Shown: in pieces, positions 5,550 to 49,526 of the stretch
Layout of the letters: every line of letters starts with the position of its first letter
Position numbering within the stretch: the first letter of the stretch is position 1
Origin: Bacteroidales bacterium
Lineage (GTDB): Bacteria; Bacteroidota; Bacteroidia; Bacteroidales; UBA7960
NCBI GenBank assembly: GCA_003556325.1
Contig: PWRF01000302.1
Location: 1-49,526, forward strand
Direction: 5' to 3'
DNA length: 49,526 nt
Position numbers and translations under genes: made by a program
The notes under the pieces: generated by a model
Database searches by the model: none
What the model saw: the letters and a program-made list of their open reading frames with translations, nothing else
What the model was told of the DNA's origin: nothing

Positions 5550-6023
5550 TTAAAACCGGTAAATCACACCGCCCCTGACAATAGGGTTCTCTACCGGGCT
5601 GTCGTCGTCGAGAAGGAGGTCGTACAAGACCATTCCGTAAGCTTCGCTCCGGGATCCAAGGCCGTAACGATAACCCGCACCAACAGGAAGCCCGGTGATC
5701 CACTTTCTTTCGCCTCCGTGTTCAATGTTTGTCATCTCAAACTCAGCATGTCCGAAAACCTGCGGCACAGGGCTCACTTGTGTGAATATCCGGTTTCCGT
5801 AGGAGTAACGATTATCCCGGTCGCGGTACTCGCGATAAGAAAAGAACGGCGAGATGCCCACGTCCACGATCCCCATCCGGTACCCGATGATGGGCGACGC
5901 CTCAATATAGTACCCCCGGCTGTAATGGACTCCCACACTGCCTCCGGTGAAAACCTGTGCCTGGCTGCTGTCCGTCATGAGAAATGCAAAAGAGAAAAAT
6001 AGTAAGATTCCTGCCTTTATCAT
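5550..6023 (-). CDS. small outer-membrane beta-barrel protein (hypothetical)
   Basis: Signal peptide ending SQA|Q, amphipathic Gly/aromatic strands, C-terminal GVIYRF. Confidence 0.72.
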   Translation of the reverse strand: MIKAGILLFFSFAFLMTDSSQAQVFTGGSVGVHYSRGYYIEASPIIGYRMGIVDVGISPFFSYREYRDRDNRYSYGNRIFTQVSPVPQVFGHAEFEMTNIEHGGERKWITGLPVGAGYRYGLGSRSEAYGMVLYDLLLDDDSPVENPIVRGGVIYRF

Positions 6024-6095: not shown

Positions 6096-7346
6096 TTATT
6101 CTGCCGGGTTCATAATTCTGCCGGAAAACAGTATGTTCTGTGTTGTGTTATCCTTCACAAAGAACAAGAAAGGTCGGTTGGCTCTGAATACAGGAGGTTG
6201 ATCCGGGTCGATCGAGGTTTTCCTGATCACCACCACGGCGGTTGCAGCGGCTGCTTCGGTTCCTTCTTCAGAAACCTCGATAACGGCCTGGTGAATGACC
6301 TTGTCCAGCATGAGGTCCAGTTCACCTGTCATGCCTGAGAAATCGGCAAAGCGGTTGAAGGCGGTTTCCATTCCCATGTTTGCCAAAATGTCTTCAAGGT
6401 CGATCTGGGTTTCGGCTTTGAATGAAGGGATAAACACTTCCACCTCTCGTTCATTCATTTTCTCAACCATATCTGCAAAAGCCTCAGCATCCAGTCCGCG
6501 TTCAACTTCTTCCAGGGTTTTTCCCTGAGCAGGCAGCACGAAAAGCATCGAGAAGTCACCTCCGTTGTAAGGTATTTCCAGAAGTTGTTTTTCATCATTC
6601 TCAAAGTAAGGGAGGGTATCGCTGCGTCTCATAAAGTCTGTGGAGACCATTTCACGGTCCCGGAGGTAGAATATATCTTCCGTAGTCAGCTCCGGGTCAA
6701 ATTCCTTTAACCATGCTCCCAGAAAGTATATGGCATTCACAAGAACCAGCCGGGTGTCTTCGTTCAGGACATTGGGTGCGATCAGGTCTTCTATTTTCTC
6801 TTTGGTTTCGTCGTATACCCAATCGTTGATGTCTTTGGTGATCTGCTGGTGATGTTCTTTGAAGTTGACCTGGAATGTCTTTGAGTCATAGTATGCCTCT
6901 ACGGTCTCAAAGAAGCTGTCGAGGAAATGATAATCCTGCTGTGCCCATAAGGAATTTGCAATATTCAATTCAATATTTTCTTCGGCACGGCCTTTTAGTG
7001 CCTGCAGGTAATCCCGGTAGGCCGGGTGAAAACGCTCCTGGTCTTTGTCAAAGTGCATCACTTCGGACATTTGTTCCATGGTTATATCCCGGGCCCCCGC
7101 GTATGTCATAGCCAGCGCCGTAGAAATACTGAAAGGTGATATCACCATATTGTCATCATCAACCGGGATCTGACGCATCAGATCGAAAGCAAACTCGTTA
7201 TTATGCATGGGAATATCGGTTTTTTCTGTCTTTTCTTCATCCTGGGTTTCTACTTCTGACTCCGGTTCATGAGTGCGATGAGAGCAACTCCATAAGATTG
7301 CTGTCAAAACCAAAACCATCATGGTCTTCATCGGGATGTTTTTCAT
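6096..7346 (-). CDS. serpin (inhibitor family I4), lipoprotein
   Basis: NMVISPFSI, LVLVNAIYF, hinge EEGTEAAAAT and FRANRPFLF motifs; lipobox ILWSC. Confidence 0.95.
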   Translation of the reverse strand: MKNIPMKTMMVLVLTAILWSCSHRTHEPESEVETQDEEKTEKTDIPMHNNEFAFDLMRQIPVDDDNMVISPFSISTALAMTYAGARDITMEQMSEVMHFDKDQERFHPAYRDYLQALKGRAEENIELNIANSLWAQQDYHFLDSFFETVEAYYDSKTFQVNFKEHHQQITKDINDWVYDETKEKIEDLIAPNVLNEDTRLVLVNAIYFLGAWLKEFDPELTTEDIFYLRDREMVSTDFMRRSDTLPYFENDEKQLLEIPYNGGDFSMLFVLPAQGKTLEEVERGLDAEAFADMVEKMNEREVEVFIPSFKAETQIDLEDILANMGMETAFNRFADFSGMTGELDLMLDKVIHQAVIEVSEEGTEAAAATAVVVIRKTSIDPDQPPVFRANRPFLFFVKDNTTQNILFSGRIMNPAE

Positions 7347-20319: not shown

Positions 20320-20877
20320 ATGAAAGAATGGAAAATATACACCAAAACCGGGGATAAGGGAGAAACTTCCCTGCTCGGGGGAAGGCGTGTGCCAAAACAT
20401 CACCTGAAGATCGAAGCATATGGAACGGCCGATGAATTGAATTCATTCATTGGGCTGCTTCGTGACCAGGACATTTCAGCGCATCATAAGGACCTTCTTC
20501 TCGAGATCCAGGACAGGGTGTTCACCGCAGAATCCCTTTTGGCCTGCGACGACGGTTGCCAGCCAGAGTTCCTTCCCGGCATGCATGATGATGACATCAC
20601 ACTGCTGGAAAAAGAAATAGATAAGATGAATGAAGCACTCCCCGAATTGAAGCATTTTATTCTTCCGGGAGGGCACCCCGCCGTATCCCATGCCCATATA
20701 TGCCGTTGCGTATGCCGGCGTGCCGAACGGATCATTACCCAGCTTGCCGAACACGACAAAGTCGATGAACTGGTGATCCAGTATTTTAACCGCCTGTCGG
20801 ATTTCTTTTTTGTGCTGGCCCGGAAAATTGCCCATGAGAAAGGAGTGCCGGATATTGAGTGGAAAGCCAGAGTATAG
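20320..20877 (+). CDS. ATP:cob(I)alamin adenosyltransferase (PduO type)
   Basis: KIYTKTGDKGET, YGTADELNS, FILPGG, CRRAER and NRLSD motifs. ATG at 20320. Confidence 0.93.
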   Translation: MKEWKIYTKTGDKGETSLLGGRRVPKHHLKIEAYGTADELNSFIGLLRDQDISAHHKDLLLEIQDRVFTAESLLACDDGCQPEFLPGMHDDDITLLEKEIDKMNEALPELKHFILPGGHPAVSHAHICRCVCRRAERIITQLAEHDKVDELVIQYFNRLSDFFFVLARKIAHEKGVPDIEWKARV

Positions 20878-20941
20878 GTTGAGGTTAAGGTTAAGTTTAA
20901 GTTTATGGCTAAGGTTACGGATATGTTTTAGGTTGGGGTTG
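20876..20941 (+). repeat. degenerate hexamer tandem repeat (AGGTTA/AGGTTG), 11 units
   Basis: aggttg aggtta aggtta agttta agttta tggcta aggtta cggata tgtttt aggttg gggttg, directly after the stop codon. Confidence 0.75.
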
Positions 20942-21087
20942 GGAAGCAGGTATTTGCAAAGTTTGAAAGCCCCGTAGCCGAGGCATTTGGACTGCGGTGG
21001 AGAAGTGCGGAGTAGCAAACAATAGCTGCAGCAGGCGAATAAAATTTTGCTATATTGATTTGATGTATTATTTTTGCAACACAAAAT

Positions 21088-34619: not shown

Positions 34620-35699
34620 GTGGTCCTTAAAAAAAGCCTGTTTCTGATCGTCATCCTGCAGTTCCTTGTTGCCCAGCATGCTTTTTCACAGCGACAGAGC
34701 GGCCGTGTGTATGAATTCCTTAACTTGTCACAGACAGCACGTATTACAGCCATGGGAGGATACGCCTACCCTGTGTTTACACCGGATCTTGGTATGTCGC
34801 TCGTGATCCCCTCCATGCTGAGCCAGGACCACAACAACCACCTGTCGCTGAACATAGTTGACTACTTTGATGACATCAACTACGGCACCGTTGCATTTAC
34901 GCATTATTTTGACCGGCTTGGTCATTTCAGCGGCGCGCTGCAATATATTGATTATGGCAGCTTCACCGAAGCCAACGAGTTTGGCCAGATCACCGGCTAC
35001 TTCTCAGCGGGAGAGTATAGTTTCCAGATCGGGTGGGGGAGAGCCCTTAGCGACCAGCTTGCGATAGGAAGCAACCTCAAGTTTATCTATTCGTCGTTTC
35101 ATGATCACAGCTCTTTTGGCCTTGCAACCGATGTGGCATTGTCTTATCATAACGAGGAAAGGCTTCTTGCTGCCTCACTTGTTGCACGCAATATGGGAAC
35201 CCAGATCACCCAATACTATGACGGCAACCGGGAGCCTTTGCCATTTGACCTGATGCTGGCCGTAACTAAGAAACTGGAAAACGCACCCTTCCAGTTTTCG
35301 TTCGTCGCAAACAATCTGCATAACTACGACCTTACATATGATACTCCGGGTTTGCTGCCCGATCATTTTGAGGATCCCGACGACGATGAACAGGACTTCC
35401 AGGAAAGAGTTGGTGACATTGCTGATAACCTGATGCGTCACCTTGTAGCCGGGGTGGAGTTTACGCCCCTGGAGAGTTTTAGCTTCCGTGTCGGGTATAA
35501 CTACAGAAGAAGGCAGGAGATGAAGGTGGAGAGCCGTTTGTCTACGGTGGGTTTTTCCTGGGGATTCGGTATCAGGATCTCTCGCTTTGAGCTGAGCTAC
35601 GGAAGATCCAACTATCATCTCGCCGGTGCACCCAATCACATATCTCTTAACACGAGTATCCAGGAGTTGTTCCAAAGTTCAGGAAACGACAACCGCTGA
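34620..35699 (+). CDS. porQ: type IX secretion system protein PorQ
   Basis: YEFLNL..AR.TAMGG, IDYGSF, RNMGTQ, GYNYRRRQEM and GFSWGFG; PorV/PorQ-family barrel. Confidence 0.85.
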   Translation: MVLKKSLFLIVILQFLVAQHAFSQRQSGRVYEFLNLSQTARITAMGGYAYPVFTPDLGMSLVIPSMLSQDHNNHLSLNIVDYFDDINYGTVAFTHYFDRLGHFSGALQYIDYGSFTEANEFGQITGYFSAGEYSFQIGWGRALSDQLAIGSNLKFIYSSFHDHSSFGLATDVALSYHNEERLLAASLVARNMGTQITQYYDGNREPLPFDLMLAVTKKLENAPFQFSFVANNLHNYDLTYDTPGLLPDHFEDPDDDEQDFQERVGDIADNLMRHLVAGVEFTPLESFSFRVGYNYRRRQEMKVESRLSTVGFSWGFGIRISRFELSYGRSNYHLAGAPNHISLNTSIQELFQSSGNDNR

Positions 35700-36495: not shown

Positions 36496-36595
36496 TATCA
36501 GCAGTGTTTTGTAGGTAAACCCATTTTGTCAAAAATAACATCTTTCCCCGTTCTTTTGTTTGGCAGTGCCAATAGAATTGTGTATTTTTGCAACC

Positions 36596-36689
36596 GGTGA
36601 GTCTGGTACGACCAGCTCCCGCTGAATTCCCCCAGGACCGGAAGGTAGCAAGGGTAGGCGGTCGTAGCGGTGCGATACCAAGGCTCACC
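36596..36689 (+). ncRNA. ffs: signal recognition particle RNA (4.5S)
   Basis: Terminal stem GGTGAGTCT/AGGCTCACC, domain IV CAGGACCGGAAGGTAGCA with GGAA tetraloop, TATTTTTG box at 36583-36590, 3' T-run. Confidence 0.95.
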
Positions 36690-36796
36690 TTTTTTATAGT
36701 TCATTTGATCTGCCTGGTGTTAAAGCTTTACTGTTGTATCTGAAATACGTACCTCAACAAGCGAAACCTTTTGTTTAACCCAAAAATCCAACGAAT

Positions 36797-37444
36797 ATGA
36801 AATTCTTTATTGATACGGCAAACCTGGATGAGATCCGTGAAGCCATGGATCTTGGGATCCTTGACGGTGTTACCACAAATCCCTCACTTATGGCCAAAGA
36901 GGGCATCAAGGGAGAGGAAAATATCAGGAAACACTACACAGACATTTGCGAGATTGTTGACGGTGATGTGAGTGCAGAGGTTATCGCCACAGATTTCGAA
37001 GGGATCATCAGGGAGGCAGAGGAACTTGCAGCCCTTCACCCACAGATCGTGGTGAAGGTCCCTATGATCAAAGATGGCGTAAAGGCAATAAAATACCTCT
37101 CCTCAAAAGGCATCAAAACCAACTGCACCCTCGTGTTTTCAACGGGTCAGGCCATATTGGCTGCAAAAGCAGGTGCCACCTATGTATCTCCTTTTATTGG
37201 CCGCCTTGACGATATTTCCACAGACGGAGTGGAACTGGTGGCCCAGATCGTTGACATCTACCGCTATTACGATTTTGACACCCAGGTGCTCGCTGCCAGT
37301 ATCCGGCATACCATGCACATTCCGCAGTGCGCAGAGGCCGGTGCCGATGTGGTGACATGCCCCCTTAAACCCATCATGGGCTTGCTCAAGCATCCCCTGA
37401 CAGATATCGGACTGGAAAAATTTCTTGCTGATCACGGGAAATAA
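36797..37444 (+). CDS. tal: transaldolase, TalC/MipB family (often annotated fructose-6-phosphate aldolase, fsa)
   Basis: [19 protein letters not shown] (Schiff-base Lys). SAEV (Glu) and YVSPFIGR (Phe) are the transaldolase-type residues. Confidence 0.9.
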
Positions 37445-37477
37445 TCGCCGGGGATCATCTTCATCAACTGCCGGAGG

Positions 37478-37849
37478 TTTCCTCCTTCCCCTCCCAGGAT
37501 TCTGTCTTCGTAATACAAAGACCATCAATCCATGCCAGGCTTTCCGCTTACCCGGACTTTTCGACCTTTCGGTTTTTCTGCCTTCCGACTTTTCGACTTT
37601 TTGACATTTCGCCCTTTTGTCTTTTTGTCTTTTTGTCTTTTCGTCCTTTTGTCTTTTCCTCCTTCCCCTCCCAGGGTTCTGTCTTCGTAATACAAAGACC
37701 ATCAATCCATGCCAGGCTTTCCGCTTACCCGGACTTTTCGACCTTTCGACTTTTTGACATTTCGTCCTTTTGTCCTTTTGTCCTTTTGTCTTTTTGTCTT
37801 TTTGTCTTTTTGTCTTTTTGTCTTTTTGTCTTTTTGTCTTTTTGTCTTT
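37478..37849 (+). repeat. composite repeat array, locus A: two 64-bp cores plus octamer arrays
   Basis: Cores at 37493-37556 and 37670-37733 differ at 1 position. Each is followed by about 14 octamers of type CTTTTCGA/CTTTTTGT. Confidence 0.95.
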
Positions 37850-37920
37850 AGTTCCCTGACAAAACATATATGGTTTTTTTGTGTTATTTTCGTAGGAGAT
37901 ATACTGTTAACACTGCACAC

Positions 37921-39303
37921 ATGAAAACCATAGCTTTTCTCTTTCTGCTGATTTTTGTGCCCGGTTTGGCGGCAGCATCCGACGGGCCCCGCAGAGACCG
38001 CGTGTCTGAGACACTGGAAGCCCATCCCGACAGGACTTTTCTGGTCTATGTCTACGAGATAAAGGAAAACATTGGCCCTCCAGCACGGCATCGGACGCAA
38101 AGAGCTTTTGAGGAAGCCGACAGTTTGCGTGCTGATTTTGTTCTTTTGCATATGAACACCTATGGAGGTACAGTAATCGATGCTGACTCCATCCGCACGC
38201 GCATCATGCAAAGCCCTATCCCGGTTATTGTATTCATTGACAACAATGCGGCTTCGGCCGGAGCGCTTATTTCCATTGCTGCAGACAGGATCTATATGCG
38301 ACCCGGTGGCAATATAGGTGCTGCCACGGTGGTGGACGCCACGGGAGCTGAAGTGCCTGACAAGTTTCAGTCCTACATGCGCTCTACCATGCGTTCCACA
38401 GCAGAGGCCAAAGGCAGGGATCCCGACATTGCCGAAGCGATGGTAGATGCTGCCATTGAAGTGGAAGGCGTTTCAGAAGCCGGCAAAGTCCTTACTTTCA
38501 CAGCCTCAGAAGCTATGCGCTGGGGTTTTTCGGAAGGAATGGCCGAAACCATCCCGCAGGTATTGGAAATCGCCGGCATAGAAAATTATGAGATCGTAGA
38601 ACAACGCCTCACCTTCACGGACAGGGTTATTCAGTTCCTCATAAGCCCTATTGTCAGCGGTATTCTTATCATGCTCATCCTGGGAGGCATTTATTTTGAG
38701 CTGCAAACCCCTGGCGTGGGATTTCCTATTCTTGCAGCCGCTACGGCCGCTTTGCTCTATTTCGCACCGCTTTATATCGAGGGGCTGGCCAGCCATTATG
38801 AGATCATCCTTTTCATCCTGGGAATTGTACTTATTGCCATTGAGCTTTTTGCCATACCGGGATTCGGTGTTACCGGTATTCTTGGTGTGATATCTGTTAT
38901 CACCGGCCTTGCCCTGGCTATGGTGGGCAACGAAGGGTTTGACTTTACCGGTGTGAGTCTTTCAGAAGTACTTACGGCCTTCCTCATCGTGATCATAGCC
39001 TTCTTTGTTTCCCTGTCCGGCTCTTTCTACATCGGCGACAGACTCTTTACCACCACCCGGTTTGGTGAGCTGGCCCTCGACACTGTGCAGGAAAAAAGCT
39101 CCGGCTACACCTCCGCAGATGCGACCATGTCAACGCTGCTTGGAAAAACAGGCGTTGCCTTTACCATGCTGCGCCCCAGTGGAAAAGTAGAAATCGACGA
39201 CGATATATACGACGCTACCGCCCTGACCGGATTCGTCGATAAAGGAGAAGCCGTTAAAGTAGTGAAATACGAAACTTCCCAGGTTTTTGTGGTAAAGGCC
39301 TGA
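37921..39303 (+). CDS. nfeD: NfeD-family membrane-bound serine protease (ClpP-like + TM + OB fold)
   Basis: MNTYGG, AASAGALI, GNIGAA, ELQTPG, ELFAIPGFG and LRPSGK motifs. ATG 37921 gives a signal peptide. Confidence 0.9.
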   Translation: MKTIAFLFLLIFVPGLAAASDGPRRDRVSETLEAHPDRTFLVYVYEIKENIGPPARHRTQRAFEEADSLRADFVLLHMNTYGGTVIDADSIRTRIMQSPIPVIVFIDNNAASAGALISIAADRIYMRPGGNIGAATVVDATGAEVPDKFQSYMRSTMRSTAEAKGRDPDIAEAMVDAAIEVEGVSEAGKVLTFTASEAMRWGFSEGMAETIPQVLEIAGIENYEIVEQRLTFTDRVIQFLISPIVSGILIMLILGGIYFELQTPGVGFPILAAATAALLYFAPLYIEGLASHYEIILFILGIVLIAIELFAIPGFGVTGILGVISVITGLALAMVGNEGFDFTGVSLSEVLTAFLIVIIAFFVSLSGSFYIGDRLFTTTRFGELALDTVQEKSSGYTSADATMSTLLGKTGVAFTMLRPSGKVEIDDDIYDATALTGFVDKGEAVKVVKYETSQVFVVKA

Positions 39304-41438: not shown

Positions 41439-42392
41439 ATGGAAATAAAAAAAGTACATATCCCAAACGCGCGACTGGTTGAGGGGCGCAGCTATCCTTT
41501 CCGCATCCTTAAGATCGTGTCTTTGGGGCCCGGAGAGGATTGGTTTGTGATGCAGGACCCCAACGGGTATAAAATTCTTGTGCCCGAAAATTTCTACAGG
41601 CAGTACGGTTTTAAGCCCGGTCAGACCCTTATGTGCAGGGTGGATAAGATCAACTGCAACGGCCGGATGTTTCTTGAACCCGAACATCCTCATTATAAAG
41701 AGGGTGAAACGTATGATTTTGAGCTGGTTTCCAAGGGTCGTCGGAAAAACATCATTAACCAGGATGAACGCTATTTTATTGTACGGGATGTATTCAGCAA
41801 CGAATGGAAAGTACGAACCTATGACCGGATGCTTTGGGAAGATCCCCCGTTTCGTATTCCTTGCAAAGTAAGGCGAATTAAAAAGGGTAAGCTGTTTCTG
41901 ATCATTGCCGGGGAAGAGGTCAGGCACCCCGATCTTAAGCCCGGGCAGATTTATCCTTTTACTATTGTTGATGAAACCATAAATCCTGACGACGGCCATA
42001 GCTATTATATTCTTGAAGATGTAACCGGCAGCAAGCACCTGTTGCGGAAAAAGTATTATATGCATTACGGGTTCAGGAAAGGACAGCGCATAGACTGCAG
42101 GGTAGATAAATTTGCCTCTGAAGGATTTTATTTGCTTGAGCCGATGCATCCCTGCTACGAAACCGGCAACATATACCGCCTCCCTGTCGAAAGGGTAGAG
42201 GAGTTGGTTTTTACTGACGGGTTTACACAGAAAGTCCTGGTCTTGACGGATTGTTTCGGAGAAGAAGTTAAGGTCTTTTCAGACGATAAGGTAGCAGCTT
42301 ACCTTTTGAATAAAGGCTCTGTCGAAGCCCGGGTGTCGCGCATCCGGAAAAGCAGGCTCGAGCTGGAGATAGATGTCTCCGGTTTTGAATAA
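41439..42392 (+). CDS. hypothetical protein with internally duplicated S1/OB-like beta modules
   Basis: 317 aa. The two halves share YPF, YGFxxGQxxxCRVDK and LEPxHPxY. Confidence 0.78.
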   Translation: MEIKKVHIPNARLVEGRSYPFRILKIVSLGPGEDWFVMQDPNGYKILVPENFYRQYGFKPGQTLMCRVDKINCNGRMFLEPEHPHYKEGETYDFELVSKGRRKNIINQDERYFIVRDVFSNEWKVRTYDRMLWEDPPFRIPCKVRRIKKGKLFLIIAGEEVRHPDLKPGQIYPFTIVDETINPDDGHSYYILEDVTGSKHLLRKKYYMHYGFRKGQRIDCRVDKFASEGFYLLEPMHPCYETGNIYRLPVERVEELVFTDGFTQKVLVLTDCFGEEVKVFSDDKVAAYLLNKGSVEARVSRIRKSRLELEIDVSGFE

Positions 42393-44870: not shown

Positions 44871-47800
44871 TTAAATCCATTTGATCAGGTTAAAGTCCTG
44901 GCGGTGGGCAAGTTCAGAGTGCTTGGGAAACACACGGAATGCGTAATTGAAGTCACCGGTGCGTTGTGCCGGGACCTCGGATTTAAACGTAACCTGTCCC
45001 TTTTCGCTTTTTACCTTTTCCATCTCGTAAACAGATACCATCTCGCGGTCGCCTCCTGGCCATTTTTGGGCAAAGACGACTTCGACACCAAAATCGGAAT
45101 CCTTTATGTCCTGCACCTCCAGTGTTAACTCAGCCAGGAAGAGGTCGCCCAGCTTCAGTTTCTTGCCAGAGTTGCTCAGCAGTTTTTTATCCACGACCTG
45201 GATGCTATCCCAGGCACGCAGCACCTTGTTTTTCCAGTGGACCATCGCCCGGGCCGTTTTGAAATCGTCGCGGTGGAATTTCTCTGAGGAGCCAAATAAT
45301 GCATTATAGTATTGATTGAAGTAGTCGTCCATCATTCGCTTGTTGGTATAATGCGGTGCTATGCGGGCGATGTTGTTCTTTATCCATCTGACCCATTCTT
45401 CCGGCAGGCCTTTCTCATTACGATCATAAAACATCGGGGCGATCTCGGTTTCCAGGGTGCTGTAAAGCATTTCAGCATCCAGCTCGTTCTGGAACTCCTG
45501 GTTTTCGAAAGTCTTCTCTTCTTTAAGCTGCCAGCCGGCTTCTTCCACATAGCCTTCAGCCCACCATCCATCGAGAACACTGAAATTCATCACACCATTC
45601 AACACTGCTTTTTGCCCGCTTGTACCCGATGCTTCCTGCGGCCTGGTGGGTGTATTCAGCCAGATGTCGACACCTTTGACCAGTTCCCGGCCCAGTTCCA
45701 TGTCGTAATCTTCCAGGAAGATGATCTTTCCCAGGAATTCTTTCCTGCGGCTTATCTCCAGGATATGTTTGATCAGTTCCTGTCCGGCTTTATCGGCAGG
45801 GTGTGCTTTCCCGGCATATATGAACTGCACCGGCCTCTCGGGGTCGTTCACAATGCGTGAAAGACGCTCCAGGTCGTTAAAAAGCAGATGGGCCCGCTTG
45901 TACGTAGCAAAGCGGCGGGCAAAGCCTATGGTCAGCGCTTTGTCGTCTACCGCATCCATCAGCTGATAGATCTTGCGCGGGGTTTCCTGGCGGCGCGAGA
46001 GGTTTTGCAGCATCCTGCGTTCGATGTACTGCAGGAGGTTCTTCCTGTTTTTGTTTCGCAGATCCCAGATCTGTTTGTCCGGTAAGTCATATATCTTCTC
46101 CCATATACGGGGGCTGCTGATGTCTTTCAGGAAATCGTTGCCAAAGGTTTTGCGGTACAATTCCTGCCAGTCTCCGGCTGTCCAGCTTCCGTAATGCACC
46201 CCGTTGGTTACATGGCCAATATGGATTTCCTGCGGGAAATAGCCCGGATAGAGGTCTTTGAACATGTCCCGGGACACTTTGCCATGAATGAGGCTCACGC
46301 CGTTTACATGGCGCGCCAGTTTGGCTGCAAGGACGCTCATGGAATAATCTTCGTCGGGATTTTGCGGGTTCATTTTTCCGAGTCCCATAAAAGACTCCCA
46401 GCTTATACCCAACCGGTCGGCATAATGCGGCATGTAGGTACGCAGCATGTCTTCGCTGAAAAAGTCGTGTCCTGCCGGAACAGGGGTGTGTGTAGTAAAC
46501 AGGCTGCTGGCACGAACAACCTCCACGGCTTCGTGGAAACTGAGCTTGTCATCCTGCACGTACTTGCGCAGACGTTCGAGGCCGGTAAAAGCTGCGTGTC
46601 CCTCATTGCAATGATAGACATCCGGCTTAAGGCCAAGAGCATCAAGGAGCCTGATCCCCCCGATACCCAGCAAAAACTCCTGCTTGAAACGGTTTTCCCA
46701 GTCGCCGCCATAGAGCTGATGGGTTACAAACCTGTCTACAGATTGGTTTTCGGAGATGTCGGTGTCCAGCAGGTAAAGAGGTACCCTTCCTACATCTATG
46801 CGCCATACGCGGGCATGCAGGGTGCGGCCGGGGAATCCAATGCTGATCTTCACGCGGTTGCCATCTTTGTCGCGGACGGGTTTAGCAAACATTTTTGCAA
46901 AATCATGAGGGTGATAGGTGTCCAGCTGCTCGCCGTGCACAGAGAGGCTTTGTGTAAAGTAGCCGTAACGGTAAAGCAAACCGATGCCCACCATATCTGC
47001 ATTATCGTCACTCGCTTGCTTCAGAAAGTCTCCGGCCAGTACGCCAAGGCCTCCGGAGTAGATCTTGATGTTTTCATTTAAGCCATATTCCATGGAGAAA
47101 TAGGCAATCTGCCTGGTTTTCTTTTGCCTGCCTTCTTGCATGTATGTGTTGAATTTCTTCTCCACTTCGGCATATTTCTTCATGAAGGCCTGATCTTCTG
47201 TCAGGCGGTCATATTCCTCCATTGACAATGCATCCAGCAGCTCTACCGGGTTTTTATTGCTTGTCTCCCATAGTTCCGGATTGATACCCTGGAAGAGCCT
47301 TCGGGCATCGTCGTTCCAGGTCCACCATATGTTTTTTGCCATCTCAGGCAGAGCTTTCAGGGATTCCGGGACACTGATCCCGACACTTATCTTTTTCCAT
47401 TTTGGTCTCATACTTTCAACTGGCGGCATAGTTACACTTCTTATGGGTTGTTTCTTGTCTTTGTACTGATGATATCGTTCTCCGGCCGATTTCAGGGCTG
47501 TATTAAAGGATTCCCTGTAAAAACCGAATTGCTGATCCCATACCACGGTTTGTGCGATCTCTTTTGTCTGGGCACGGGCCGGGATCATATTTTTATGGCA
47601 GTGCGGGGCAGCATGTTCTTCCTCCCCGGTGTAGCCGTCTTTTGCGGCATGATCTATCCATTTAGCAATAATATCTGTCATTTCAGCAACAGGCGCTTCG
47701 CCTTCCTCATCGCTGCGCCTGATCAGTTTCAGTGCTTCTTCGCTTTTCAGATCCTGTTCACCGACCCACTTGCCAAAGCCTGAAAGGCTGGTGGAAACAC

Positions 47801-49160
47801 TGGGCACTTGCATCACAATGCTTTCCATCGGGGTATATCCCCAAGGTTCATAATAGGAAGGAAATACCGTGGCGTCAAAGCCGGTAAGCAGGTCAAAATA
47901 GTTCATCTGGTAAATGCCGTCATCGCCGTTCAGGTAGGCCGGCGTAAAGATTACCTTTACCTTGTCTTCAGGTTTGTTGTGCAGGCCGGCCTGGTGAAGG
48001 CGCTGCATAACAGCGTCATTCGAGGGATCCGCAAGAACGTGTGTAAGGTGTTCGTTACTTATGGGTTTTTTAAAACCGGGGTTTTGTATCCTGGCCGGCA
48101 ATTCCTTTCTGAATCCGGTCTGATGGCCTGGCACCATGATAAATGCCAACAAGGGCTTTTTCAGATCCTTTTGGTTCAGTCTTCCCAATGCGTCGATGAA
48201 GATGTCGATGCCTTTGTTACGAAATTCATAACGGCCGCTGTGGCCGACCAGGAAACTTTCTTCCGGAAATTTCTGCTGCAGCAGGCCCCGCGCTACGTCC
48301 AGGAGGCGTTTCTTCGCAGCCTTCCTTTTTTGGCCCAGTTCTTCATCGGCAATCAGCATCTCGCGACTGATGCCATTAGGTGTGACCACCTGCGGTTTCT
48401 TACCGATCGCTTTTTCACATTCGTCGGCGGTACCTTGCGAGACCGTGGTAAACACGTCGGCATTCCCTGCAGCTACCTTTTCCAGGCTGTATTTGGACAA
48501 TACACCCAGTTCGTTGGCTTTTGACTCTGCATCAAGGGTATCAAGCTGCTGATAAAGATTCTGGCCGTTTCCGGCTATGGCGCGACCCACAACGGTTGCG
48601 TGGGTGGTGAATATCGTCCCGGCCTGGGGTACGCGGTCTTTCAGGTACAATACACCCGTGCCTGTCATCCACTCATGAAAATGGGCAACCAGCTTGTCGT
48701 GAGCTGTCAGATGAAAATCGTAAAAGTTTTCGATTACCTGTCCGGCAGCATAGCCAAACATGGCAGGTTCGGTATAGTCCCACTGGCCGCTTAAGGAGTT
48801 CAAACCAAACTTCAGCCAGTAATCGGAAAAGATATCGTCTTTTTTGCCAAACAGCGGGGTGAAGTCTACCAGGATGGCGATTGGATTGCCGGGAACCTGC
48901 CAGCGCCCCAGGCGAACATGGATATTCTTTTGGGCGGCGTGTTCCCGCCAGGCCCTGAAGAGTTCAGGGTCTTCCTCAAATTCCGGGTTTTGATGTGTTT
49001 CCTTCCACACGTCCGGCCCGATACAGATGTAATTGTCTTTCTGCTCCGCTGCCAGGATGGGTGCCTTAGTGCTGATCACGGTATGGATACCTCCGATCTT
49101 GTTGGCTACCTCCCAGCTTACCTCAAAAATATAATCCGGGTTCAAATGCTCTTCTTTCAT
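44871..49160 (-). CDS. glgP: fused glycogen synthase (GT3) / alpha-glucan phosphorylase (GT35)
   Basis: N-half: EVANKIGGI, GRYEFRNKG, FPSYYEPWGYTPMES. C-half: YFSMEYG, YSGGLG, NEGH, ARRFATYKR, EASGTSGQK (PLP Lys). One continuous 1429-aa frame. Confidence 0.93.
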   Translation of the reverse strand: MKEEHLNPDYIFEVSWEVANKIGGIHTVISTKAPILAAEQKDNYICIGPDVWKETHQNPEFEEDPELFRAWREHAAQKNIHVRLGRWQVPGNPIAILVDFTPLFGKKDDIFSDYWLKFGLNSLSGQWDYTEPAMFGYAAGQVIENFYDFHLTAHDKLVAHFHEWMTGTGVLYLKDRVPQAGTIFTTHATVVGRAIAGNGQNLYQQLDTLDAESKANELGVLSKYSLEKVAAGNADVFTTVSQGTADECEKAIGKKPQVVTPNGISREMLIADEELGQKRKAAKKRLLDVARGLLQQKFPEESFLVGHSGRYEFRNKGIDIFIDALGRLNQKDLKKPLLAFIMVPGHQTGFRKELPARIQNPGFKKPISNEHLTHVLADPSNDAVMQRLHQAGLHNKPEDKVKVIFTPAYLNGDDGIYQMNYFDLLTGFDATVFPSYYEPWGYTPMESIVMQVPSVSTSLSGFGKWVGEQDLKSEEALKLIRRSDEEGEAPVAEMTDIIAKWIDHAAKDGYTGEEEHAAPHCHKNMIPARAQTKEIAQTVVWDQQFGFYRESFNTALKSAGERYHQYKDKKQPIRSVTMPPVESMRPKWKKISVGISVPESLKALPEMAKNIWWTWNDDARRLFQGINPELWETSNKNPVELLDALSMEEYDRLTEDQAFMKKYAEVEKKFNTYMQEGRQKKTRQIAYFSMEYGLNENIKIYSGGLGVLAGDFLKQASDDNADMVGIGLLYRYGYFTQSLSVHGEQLDTYHPHDFAKMFAKPVRDKDGNRVKISIGFPGRTLHARVWRIDVGRVPLYLLDTDISENQSVDRFVTHQLYGGDWENRFKQEFLLGIGGIRLLDALGLKPDVYHCNEGHAAFTGLERLRKYVQDDKLSFHEAVEVVRASSLFTTHTPVPAGHDFFSEDMLRTYMPHYADRLGISWESFMGLGKMNPQNPDEDYSMSVLAAKLARHVNGVSLIHGKVSRDMFKDLYPGYFPQEIHIGHVTNGVHYGSWTAGDWQELYRKTFGNDFLKDISSPRIWEKIYDLPDKQIWDLRNKNRKNLLQYIERRMLQNLSRRQETPRKIYQLMDAVDDKALTIGFARRFATYKRAHLLFNDLERLSRIVNDPERPVQFIYAGKAHPADKAGQELIKHILEISRRKEFLGKIIFLEDYDMELGRELVKGVDIWLNTPTRPQEASGTSGQKAVLNGVMNFSVLDGWWAEGYVEEAGWQLKEEKTFENQEFQNELDAEMLYSTLETEIAPMFYDRNEKGLPEEWVRWIKNNIARIAPHYTNKRMMDDYFNQYYNALFGSSEKFHRDDFKTARAMVHWKNKVLRAWDSIQVVDKKLLSNSGKKLKLGDLFLAELTLEVQDIKDSDFGVEVVFAQKWPGGDREMVSVYEMEKVKSEKGQVTFKSEVPAQRTGDFNYAFRVFPKHSELAHRQDFNLIKWI

Positions 49161-49265
49161 AAATCGTTATTATTTTTTAGTCAAAAATGAACGTGAAATT
49201 ACAAAAAAAAATCAATGTGATGACTATAAATCGGATTGTGTTGGTTTTGTGATGTTTAGGTTATG

Positions 49266-49526
49266 TCAAAAGGAGGAAAAGACGAAAAGACAAAAAGACG
49301 AAAAGACAAAAGGACAAAAGGAGGAAATGTTGAAAAGTCGAAAAGTCCGGGTATGCGGAAAGCTTGGCATGGATTGATGGTCTTTGTATTGGGAAGATAG
49401 AATCATGGGAGGGGAAGGAGGAAAAGACAAAAAGACAAAAAGACGAAATGTCAAAAAGTCGAAAAGTCCGGGTATGCGGAAAGCTTGGCATGGATTGATG
49501 GTCTTTGTATTGGGAAGATAGAATCC
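49266..49526 (-). repeat. composite repeat array, locus B (inverted relative to locus A; runs off the window end)
   Basis: 10 octamers (49266-49345), core 49346-49409, 57 bp of octamer-type units, and a second core from 49467 to the window end. Confidence 0.95.

What the first reader, a model, noticed from the sequence alone, without database searches (positions are those of the whole stretch)
37478..37849. Dispersed composite repeat family: a 64-bp core alternating with ordered octamer arrays (locus A)
Seen: a non-repetitive 64-bp core (CCCAGGATTCTGTCTTCGTAATACAAAGACCATCAATCCATGCCAGGCTTTCCGCTTACCCGGA) occurs twice here at a 177-bp period and twice more, inverted, at 49346-49526. The spacers are exact-register octamer arrays of variable length. 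Their variants keep the same order (CTTTTCGA > CTTTTTGA > CATTTCGN > C[C/T]TTTTGT > CTTTTCCT > CCTTCCCCT), and one strand is strongly pyrimidine-rich. On the purine strand the core can form CCGGG/CCTGG and GTCTTTGT/ACGAAGAC stems. The locus B changes keep the first stem as G-U pairs but weaken the second. There are no terminal inverted repeats and no transposase or cas gene nearby. Inference: an unnamed non-autonomous mobile unit, a structured RNA array, or a protein-binding/VNTR module. This is the best candidate for an undescribed system in the window.
Basis: partly seen in the sequence, partly recalled or inferred. Interest (0 to 1): 0.75.

Follow-up and report, generated by a model that had tools for sequence, protein, structure and literature searches.

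The report
Composite octamer-and-core intergenic repeat family
Two intergenic sites in an uncultured Bacteroidales genome carry a real, non-coding repeat that alternates a 64-base core with octamer runs of variable length; it is a new but fairly ordinary species-restricted repeat family whose function is unknown.

Summary
Locus A (37478-37849, +) holds two 177-nt units. Locus B (49267-49526, inverted, cut by the window end) holds two 121-nt units. Each unit is a 15-nt CT tail, a 64-nt core, an ordered "head" of octamers and a (CYTTTTGT)n tract. A 26-nt core piece is exact in 4 of 4 copies, with 0 expected by chance.

- **Position:** both loci have the same orientation, 71 and 106 nt upstream of the first gene of two convergent gene blocks.
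- **Variable number of repeats:** an independently predicted protein (P0001) reads the same locus with exactly three fewer octamers, so the tract varies in length and the structure is not a one-assembly artefact.
- **What it is not:** no Rfam match, no compensatory base-pair changes, no terminal inverted repeats, no coding signal. No transposase, cas, reverse-transcriptase or recombinase domain was found among 39 window ORFs.
- **Spread:** an exact 20-mer scan of 185,579 species genomes gave one chance hit. Plasmids, phages and papers gave nothing.

Best reading: a lineage-restricted composite repeat bearing a microsatellite, loosely like BrickBuilt or BOX elements. It changes by slippage and unequal recombination. 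How it disperses and what it does remain untested.

The parts
37478..37849 (+). Locus A: two tandem composite units, pyrimidine-rich on the + strand. It lies 33 nt after the tal stop codon and 71 nt before the nfeD ATG.
   Evidence: (D2)
37478..37492 (+). CT-rich tail TTTCCTCCTTCCCCT. It is the left edge of the element and is identical in all three complete modules.
37493..37556 (+). Core A1 (64 nt)
37557..37669 (+). Octamer array A1 (113 nt: 14 octamers plus 1 nt). It consists of an ordered head, an extra block CCTTTCGG TTTTTCTG CCTTCCGA, five CYTTTYGT units and the tail.
37670..37733 (+). Core A2 (64 nt, 1 difference from A1)
37734..37849 (+). Gene-proximal octamer array A2: a head of 4 octamers, CCTTTTGT x3, then CTTTTTGT x7 plus CTTT (37790-37849). 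The last tract is the length-variable one; P0001 has three fewer units.
49267..49526 (-). Locus B: two units at a 121-nt period, pyrimidine-rich on the - strand, 106 nt upstream of the ATG (49160) of the 1429-aa gene. It is cut by the window end, so its full extent is unknown.
   Evidence: (D3)
49346..49409 (-). Core B, gene-proximal copy (64 nt; 58 of 64 identical to A1)
49467..49526 (-). Core B, distal copy, truncated by the window end (60 of 64 nt)
49410..49466 (-). Octamer array between the two B cores (57 nt: 7 octamers plus 1 nt)
49267..49345 (-). Gene-proximal octamer array of locus B
36797..37444 (+). Upstream neighbour of locus A: transaldolase / fructose-6-phosphate aldolase (context only)
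   Evidence: PF00923, E 8.7e-61
37921..39303 (+). Downstream neighbour of locus A: NfeD-family membrane protease, 460 aa. The start at 37921 fits the usual 460-aa length of its relatives.
44871..49160 (-). Downstream neighbour of locus B: a 1429-aa fusion of glycogen synthase, DUF3417 and alpha-glucan phosphorylase (context only)

Best explanation
This is a lineage-restricted, non-coding composite repeat of an uncultured Bacteroidales bacterium.

**Anatomy.** The building block is a complex module of about 103 nt: a 15-nt CT tail, a 64-nt core, and a head of about 24 nt of ordered octamers in GAC phase. An expandable octanucleotide microsatellite, (CYTTTTGT)n, follows it.

**Shown.**
- The module plus microsatellite is duplicated in tandem, two per locus, at two or more intergenic sites.
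- The microsatellite changes length in steps of whole octamers.
- Copies within a locus are more alike than copies between loci.

**Inferred.**
- Replication slippage and unequal recombination in the octamer tract change tract length and created the tandem units.
- Dispersal to the second site was a rare recombination or trans-mobilised event.
- The element is selfish or neutral DNA. Its main consequence is to vary the length and composition of the region upstream of the first gene of a transcription unit. That region is pyrimidine-rich and predicted to be unstructured as RNA.

It is not a gene, a conserved structured RNA, a CRISPR array, a REP element or a classical MITE.
For: - **Repeat anatomy and significance:**
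- **Length polymorphism.** P0001 (126 aa) is identical to the window's purine-strand reading at 122 of 122 aligned residues, apart from one 8-residue gap in the perfect CTTTTTGT tract. The spacer lengths inside the window also differ (113 and 57 nt), all in octamer register.
- **Homogenisation within loci.** A1 differs from A2 at 1 of 64 positions and B1 from B2 at 1 of 60. A1 differs from B1 at 6 of 64.
- **Non-coding.**
  - The 8-nt period is not a multiple of 3.
  - The 121-nt period at B shifts the frame between cores.
  - 0 of 4 repeat ORFs tested have a Pfam hit.
  - 0 of 7 ORFs tested are in the protein collection.
- **No known RNA family**.
- **No mobility or cas domain** in 39 of 39 ORFs scanned against Pfam. 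Three of those ORFs had no Pfam hit; an NCBIfam scan identified one of them as PorQ.
- **Narrow range.** An exact 20-mer of the core found 1 locus among the representative genomes of 185,579 species. Its flanks are unrelated, so it is a chance hit. NfeD relatives at 78-90% identity are nevertheless plentiful.
- **Precedent for the kind:** BrickBuilt in Porphyromonas gingivalis, built as leader, a 23-nt unit repeated n times, and tail, and always intergenic (PMC4596501, abstract and section 5 read).
Against: - Only two loci and one allele are in hand, so "family" and "dispersed" rest on thin data.
- Both loci have the same orientation just upstream of the first gene of a gene block. That hints at function, but 2 of 2 has a 50% chance.
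- The central 26 nt of the core are invariant while its flanks differ. This could reflect constraint rather than youth.
- P0004 and P0008 carry octamer arrays with the same ordered head next to different or only partly similar sequence. That suggests a wider and perhaps older modular family than a young selfish repeat would give.
- No dispersal mechanism is shown.
Confidence: 0.6

Rival explanations
1. The element is a cis-regulatory module. The octamer tract acts as a heritable, slippage-driven "volume knob" for the downstream gene, as the (ATCTTTC)n tract does upstream of hmw1A in Haemophilus influenzae. It would work either as promoter-upstream spacing or as a transcribed 5' leader. The core and ordered head might be a docking site for a DNA- or RNA-binding protein.
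For: - Both loci lie in the same orientation, 71 and 106 nt upstream of the first gene of two convergent gene blocks.
- The gene-proximal perfect tract is the part that varies between near-identical sequences.
- The hmw precedent is a pyrimidine-rich heptamer tract in a 5' UTR that sets expression level (PMC12721329, abstract seen).
Against: - The downstream genes are housekeeping genes (NfeD, glycogen synthase/phosphorylase), not typical contingency genes.
- The element holds no sigma-70-type promoter.
- It holds no match to the Bacteroidetes-type promoter pattern TTTG-N17-23-TANNTTTG. That motif is recalled, not read in a paper. Its only 2 matches in the window lie upstream of tRNA-Pro and the SRP RNA.
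- Orientation agreement of 2 of 2 is not significant.
- No binding protein is known.
Confidence: 0.15
2. The element is a non-autonomous mobile element of the MITE or BrickBuilt type. A transposase or recombinase encoded elsewhere in the genome moves it, and it carries an internal satellite.
For: - The same complex module, with sharp edges, sits at two unrelated intergenic sites.
- A Bacteroidales precedent exists for a MITE with an internal minisatellite (PMC4596501).
- P0004 and P0008 suggest related modules in other contigs.
Against: - There are no terminal inverted repeats at either locus.
- No target-site duplication is visible by eye at locus A.
- No transposase lies in the 49.5 kb.
- The outer edge of locus B is beyond the window.
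Confidence: 0.12
3. The pyrimidine-rich, G-poor, unstructured transcript of the element acts as a Rho-utilisation or insulator module. It would separate tal from nfeD, and the unknown upstream gene from the glycogen gene.
For: - On the sense strand C exceeds G about 2:1 at A (105 to 50) and 3:1 at B (80 to 27).
- The + strand RNA of locus A folds no better than shuffles (z -0.55).
- There is no intrinsic terminator after tal.
- That Rho prefers C-rich, G-poor, unstructured RNA is from my own knowledge.
Against: - The tracts are T-rich rather than C-rich.
- There are no transcript data.
- The composition could be a mere by-product of the repeat.
Confidence: 0.08
4. The element is an array of structured small RNAs transcribed from the purine strand, one per core.
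For: - Copy A1 on the purine strand folds at -21.3 kcal/mol, z -2.6.
- Three A-to-B substitutions keep pairing as G-U on that strand only.
- The whole - strand of locus A gives z -3.05.
Against: - A2 (z -0.82) and B (z -0.50) do not stand out.
- 0 of 19 pairs have compensatory changes, and 3 pairs are broken in some copy.
- The whole-locus z-score comes from pairing between the two identical hairpin arms.
- There is no Rfam match and no promoter or terminator.
Confidence: 0.06
5. The structure is an assembly artefact: collapsed or chimeric repeats.
For: - The window ends inside locus B.
- P0001 stops 4 residues past the left edge of locus A, which may be a contig end.
Against: - P0001 is a separately predicted sequence that reproduces both cores, the ordered arrays and both flanks of locus A, and differs only by three octamers.
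- The two loci differ from each other at fixed positions.
Confidence: 0.03

Closest known systems
BrickBuilt MITE and minisatellite of Porphyromonas gingivalis (PMC4596501)
   Same: It occurs in a Bacteroidales host and is strictly intergenic. It is composite, with complex flanking modules around a short tandem unit of variable copy number. It is species-restricted, and gene callers predict spurious ORFs across it.
   Different: - BrickBuilt has a 23-nt unit, separate leader and tail of up to about 300 nt, and small terminal inverted repeats.
- Here the unit is 8 nt with ordered variants, there are no terminal inverted repeats, and the core alternates with the arrays as a higher-order tandem.
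- Sequence similarity was not tested directly. The exact 20-mer scan of species genomes found nothing.
BOX elements of Streptococcus pneumoniae (boxA, boxB repeated n times, boxC). The architecture is recalled; the element is mentioned in PMC10969869, passages seen.
   Same: It is a modular intergenic repeat in which a middle module varies in copy number.
   Different: BOX occurs in Firmicutes, has modules of 45-59 nt, and its RNA is predicted to fold stably. Here the variable module is an octamer, and the sense RNA is predicted to be unstructured.
Dispersed 7-nt simple-sequence-repeat families: cyanobacterial heptanucleotide repeats, and the GGGAATC and GGGGAYT repeats of Xanthomonas and Nostoc (PMC4692102, abstract and passages seen)
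   Same: One short unit of 6-9 nt is repeated in tandem at many intergenic sites, with length variation between close relatives. That paper says reports of repeats with 6-9-nt units are rare.
   Different: Those are plain arrays without a conserved complex core or ordered variants. They are G-rich and can form quadruplexes. Here the arrays are T/C-rich and tied to a 64-nt core.
The hmw1A/hmw2A (ATCTTTC)n tract of Haemophilus influenzae (PMC12721329, abstract seen)
   Same: A pyrimidine-rich short tandem repeat lies just upstream of a gene, with copy-number variation.
   Different: In hmw the tract is a proven 5' UTR hairpin arm processed by RNase III, upstream of an adhesin gene. Here no complementary purine-rich arm or expression effect is shown, and the genes are housekeeping genes.
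CRISPR arrays
   Same: A conserved repeat alternates with intervening sequence at a regular spacing.
   Different: The "spacers" are low-complexity octamer runs that share sequence and order and vary from 57 to 113 nt. The "repeat" is 64 nt. No cas gene lies in the window.

Membership tests
MITE | Terminal inverted repeats at the element's ends | tested here: not met
   An inverted-repeat search with a 6-nt seed over 37400-37930 and 49150-49526 found no pair joining the element's ends. The outer end of locus B lies beyond the window.
MITE | Target-site duplication flanking the insertion | tested here: inconclusive
   By eye, the flanks of locus A (GCCGGAGG on the left, AGTTCCCT on the right) share no direct repeat. 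The right edge is blurred by the microsatellite, and locus B is incomplete.
MITE | Small, non-coding, multiple dispersed copies | tested here: inconclusive
   The element is small and non-coding. Only 2 loci are seen in 49.5 kb, and the genome-wide count is unknown.
MITE | A parent insertion sequence or transposase with matching ends in the genome | not testable with these tools
   No transposase domain in 39 of 39 window ORFs scanned against Pfam. The rest of the genome is not available.
REP / BIME | A 20-40-nt GC-rich palindromic unit, often in alternating orientation | tested here: not met
   The units are direct repeats. The core hairpin is imperfect and is weakened at locus B.
REP / BIME | An associated RAYT (IS200/IS605-like TnpA) gene | tested here: inconclusive
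   None in the window. The rest of the genome is unseen.
CRISPR | Short conserved repeats separated by unique spacers of similar length, usually with cas genes | tested here: not met
   The spacers are related octamer arrays of 57 and 113 nt. There are no cas domains.
Any Rfam RNA family | A covariance-model match | tested here: not met
   There were no gathering-score hits on the repeat. Scans up to E <= 10 gave no hit within the repeat at locus A (its two weak hits lie at 37888-37976, outside the repeat) and none at locus B.
Variable-number tandem repeat (simple sequence repeat) | Head-to-tail short units with copy-number differences between near-identical sequences | tested here: met
   TRF reports period 8, 12.5 copies, 93% matches at 37750-37849. 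P0001 differs by exactly three octamers.
Phase-variable contingency locus | Repeat number changes the expression of the adjacent gene | not testable with these tools
   This needs reporter or transcript data.
BrickBuilt | A 23-nt repeat with homologous leader and tail carrying terminal inverted repeats | tested here: not met
   The unit is 8 nt and there are no terminal inverted repeats. Features are taken from PMC4596501. No direct sequence comparison was made.
Protein-coding repeat | A frame kept across copies, and homologues or domains | tested here: not met
   The 121-nt period at B breaks the frame. 0 of 4 repeat ORFs tested have Pfam hits. The pyrimidine-strand searches found no relative.

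The most novel reading that the evidence does not exclude
The core plus ordered octamer head would be the docking site of a dedicated, still unknown DNA- or RNA-binding factor. The adjoining octamer microsatellite would be a heritable ruler that sets how strongly the first gene of a housekeeping operon is expressed or insulated. Together they would form a modular cis-element class shared, with swapped cores, by other uncultured bacteria, as the arrays read in P0004 and P0008 hint.
Probability: 0.08. Interest if true: 0.65.

Novelty: new variant of a known kind. Interest (0 to 1): 0.35.

Why it matters
If the family proves to be multi-copy, it offers three things.
- A strain-typing marker, because the octamer number varies.
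- A likely cause of contig breaks in assemblies of this Bacteroidales lineage.
- A second Bacteroidales example, after BrickBuilt, of a complex module coupled to a short tandem repeat, here without inverted termini. That raises the question of how such modules spread.

If the octamer tract tunes nfeD or the glycogen gene, slippage-based expression tuning would extend from surface and virulence genes to housekeeping operons. As the evidence stands, it is a well-defined but functionally uncharacterised species-restricted repeat.

Tried and rejected
- **Species genomes.** An exact 20-mer of the core gave only 1 locus among the representative genomes of 185,579 species, a Bdellovibrionales MAG with unrelated flanks, so a chance hit. 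One mismatch in the 20-mer would be missed.
- **Plasmids and phages.** blastn with 11-nt words found no match.
- **Exact look-up of repeat ORFs.** 0 of 7 were found in the protein collection.
- **Second look-up, for taxonomy.** It did not complete because the shared database was off.
- **Purine-strand translation search.** It returned 19 hits. One is the same locus (P0001) and two have the ordered head (P0004, P0008). The other 16 have only KDKKTKRQ-type low-complexity runs and were set aside as uninformative.
- **Pyrimidine-strand translations.** There were 0 hits, and 2 irrelevant long repeat proteins in the representative library.
- **Rfam, promoters and terminators.** Nothing at gathering score or up to E <= 10. 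The sigma-70 promoter and intrinsic terminator scan found 0 sites.
- **Coding, CRISPR, REP and classical MITE readings.** All were rejected; see the membership tests.
- **Literature.** Four strings from the repeat occur in 0 papers. Word searches found no description of this element.
- **Not used.** Structure prediction, complex prediction and the protein atlas were not used, because nothing here is a credible protein.

Full report
**What is there.**
- Locus A (37478-37849, + strand) holds two tandem units of 177 nt at 89% identity (D2; TRF period 177).
- Locus B (49267-49526) is the same thing inverted. It holds two units at a 121-nt period, 94-95% identical (D3). It runs into the end of the window, so its outer edge is unknown.
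- Parsing in octamer register gives each unit four parts:
  - a 15-nt CT-rich tail, TTTCCTCCTTCCCCT;
  - a 64-nt core of normal complexity;
  - an ordered head, CTTTTCGA / CTTTTTGA / CATTTCGN;
  - a run of CYTTTTGT units, closed again by CTTTTCCT CCTTCCCCT.
- The internal spacers are 113 nt (14x8+1) and 57 nt (7x8+1). Unit A1 carries an extra three-octamer block.
- The gene-proximal array of locus A ends in a perfect tract, CTTTTTGT x7 plus CTTT (37790-37849).

**Is it more than chance?**
- A 26-nt piece of the core is exact in 4 of 4 copies, and 0 of 100 shuffles gave any match.
- A two-octamer probe gave 31 matches against 1.23 expected, 28 of them inside the two loci.
- A profile of tail, core and head finds only these four copies in the window (E <= 6e-25). 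The next hit, E = 0.12, lies inside locus A itself.
- The loci are the two most strand-skewed 200-nt stretches of the window, with pyrimidine fractions of 0.775 and 0.225 against a mean of 0.493 and sd of 0.061.

**Context.**
- The window is from a Bacteroidales bacterium:
  - a Bacteroidales small SRP RNA lies at 36588-36694 (89 bits);
  - the window encodes a type IX secretion protein, PorQ;
  - the only named relatives of its NfeD are MAGs labelled Bacteroidales, Bacteroidia, Bacteroidetes or Bacteroides sp., and the best identity is 90%.
- Locus A begins 33 nt after the tal stop codon and ends 71 nt before the nfeD ATG at 37921. A 460-aa NfeD matches the usual length of its relatives.
- Locus B ends 106 nt upstream of the ATG of a 1429-aa fusion of glycogen synthase, DUF3417 and phosphorylase on the - strand.
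- The pyrimidine-rich strand is therefore the sense strand of the downstream gene at both loci. The two loci head two convergent gene blocks and form inverted repeats 11.4 kb apart (I1-I4).
- Agreement of orientation at 2 of 2 loci has a 50% chance.
- All 39 ORFs scanned against Pfam look like housekeeping genes or have no hit. None carries a transposase, cas, reverse-transcriptase or recombinase domain.

**It is real, and its length varies.**
- A search with the purine-strand translation of locus A returned P0001, a 126-aa predicted protein.
- P0001 is identical to the window at 122 of 122 aligned residues, apart from one 8-residue gap in the perfect tract.
- That gap is 24 nt, or three octamers. 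A separately predicted sequence thus reproduces both cores, the ordered arrays and both flanks, and differs only in octamer number.
- This argues against an artefact of one assembly and shows variable-number behaviour.
- Within loci the cores differ at 1 of 64 (A1/A2) and 1 of 60 (B1/B2) positions. Between loci, A1 and B1 differ at 6 of 64. This fits local tandem duplication or homogenisation after dispersal.

**Hints of a wider family.**
- Among the 19 hits, two besides P0001 (P0004 and P0008) read octamer arrays that end in the same ordered head.
- P0004 has KCQKVKKSKSPG against the window's KCQKVERSKSPG, followed by unrelated sequence.
- P0008 continues KVWVCG against KVRVCG at locus B, which matches the first bases of the core, and then diverges.
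- These are translations of low-complexity DNA with no genomic context, so they are suggestive only.
- The other 16 hits carry only KDKKTKRQ-type runs and were set aside.

**What it is not.**
- *Not coding.*
  - The 8-nt period and the 121-nt unit break any reading frame.
  - 0 of 4 repeat ORFs tested have a Pfam hit.
  - 0 of 7 repeat ORFs are in the protein collection.
  - The pyrimidine-strand translations have no relatives.
- *Not a known RNA.* Rfam has no hit at gathering score or up to E <= 10.
- *Not a supported structured RNA.*
  - On the purine strand only copy A1 beats shuffles (z -2.6). A2 gives -0.82 and B -0.50, and the pyrimidine strand gives about 0.
  - 0 of 19 pairs have compensatory changes, 3 keep pairing through G-U, and 3 are broken in some copy. 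Four sequences give no statistical power.
  - The - strand of the whole locus reaches z -3.05 only because the two identical hairpin arms pair with each other.
  - The + strand is unstructured (z -0.55).
- *Not a classical MITE or REP element.* There are no terminal inverted repeats, the units are direct, and I saw no target duplication by eye.
- *Not CRISPR.* The "spacers" are related octamer runs of unequal length, and there is no cas gene.
- *No sigma-70 promoter or intrinsic terminator*.
- *No Bacteroidetes-type promoter.* The pattern TTTG-N17-23-TANNTTTG, a motif I recalled rather than read, occurs twice in the window. Both matches lie directly upstream of RNA genes, tRNA-Pro and the SRP RNA, and none lies in the element.

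**Distribution.**
- An exact 20-mer of the invariant core found one locus among the representative genomes of 185,579 species. Its flanks are unrelated, so it is a chance hit.
- The search needs an exact match, and the window's own species may be absent from that collection. The result shows only that the core is not widespread in this exact form.
- Plasmids and phages gave nothing.
Empty sites in relatives and genome-wide copy number therefore stay unchecked.

**Most likely explanation (confidence 0.6).**
- It is a lineage-restricted composite repeat: a complex module of about 103 nt coupled to an expandable octanucleotide microsatellite.
- Slippage and unequal recombination in the octamer tract change tract length. 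The changed tract length is shown. The mechanism is inferred, as is its role in making the tandem units.
- Spread to a second site happened by an unknown route.
- The likely consequence is variation in the length and composition of the region upstream of the first gene of a transcription unit.
- Rivals, not mutually exclusive with this: a regulatory "volume knob" or protein-docking array (0.15), a trans-mobilised MITE-like element (0.12), a Rho-utilisation or insulator module (0.08), a structured RNA array (0.06), and an assembly artefact (0.03).

**Comparison with known elements.**
- The closest is BrickBuilt of Porphyromonas gingivalis. It is built as leader, a 23-nt unit repeated n times, and tail, has small inverted ends, occurs at 19 intergenic sites, and has promoter activity (PMC4596501, abstract and section 5 read).
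- This element shares the host order, the intergenic position and the composite plan. It fails the unit-size and inverted-terminus criteria.
- It also resembles BOX elements in its modular layout (architecture recalled; mentioned in PMC10969869, passages seen).
- It resembles the dispersed 7-nt repeat families of Xanthomonas and Nostoc (PMC4692102, abstract and passages seen). That paper says repeats with 6-9-nt units are rarely reported.
- Species-specific repeats as such are common: 97% of 613 species have them (PMC3372372, abstract seen).
- No paper in the searchable library contains strings from this element. Word searches found no description of it.

**Verdict.** It is a new family with an unusual architecture within a known general kind. 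Its function and dispersal mechanism are open. Interest is moderate to low (0.35).

Noticed in passing
window 37478-37849 and 49267-49526: The two loci are inverted repeats (82-85% complementary) flanking an 11.4-kb segment whose two gene blocks converge. Recombination between them would invert the segment while keeping the element upstream of each gene. No recombinase lies in the window.
   Followed up: partly
window 36559-36694: A Bacteroidales small SRP RNA (89 bits) lies at 36588-36694. A match to the Bacteroidetes-type promoter pattern TTTG-N-TANNTTTG ends at its first bases. The only other match in the window lies just upstream of tRNA-Pro(GGG), at 21046-21076.
   Followed up: partly
window 20876-20945: A decaying hexamer array (AGGTTA-like, TRF 7 copies) lies between the cobalamin adenosyltransferase gene and tRNA-Pro. 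It is a second kind of short-unit intergenic repeat in this genome. P0008 also reads a hexamer run (NLNLNL) next to its octamer array; this may be coincidence.
   Followed up: no
window 44871-49160 (-): A single 1429-aa ORF fuses a glycogen synthase domain, DUF3417 and an alpha-glucan phosphorylase domain.
   Followed up: no
P0001 against window 37466-37477: P0001 ends at PPAV, 4 residues past the left edge of locus A, whereas the window's frame stays open. The other contig may end, or diverge, within about 12 nt of the element's boundary. This may be an assembly break caused by the repeat or by strain variation.
   Followed up: no
window 41439-42392 (+) and 5550-6023 (-): Two ORFs (317 aa and 157 aa) have no Pfam or NCBIfam match. 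The first lies between the two repeat loci.
   Followed up: partly
window 6096-7346 (-) and 34620-35699 (+): A full-length serpin (PF00079, E 1.5e-118) and the type IX secretion protein PorQ (NF033711, 330 bits).
   Followed up: no
window 37473-37487: A small GGAGG-TTT-CCTCC hairpin is formed by the unique left flank and the first bases of the element's CT tail. It is not followed by a T run, and the terminator scan did not call it.
   Followed up: no
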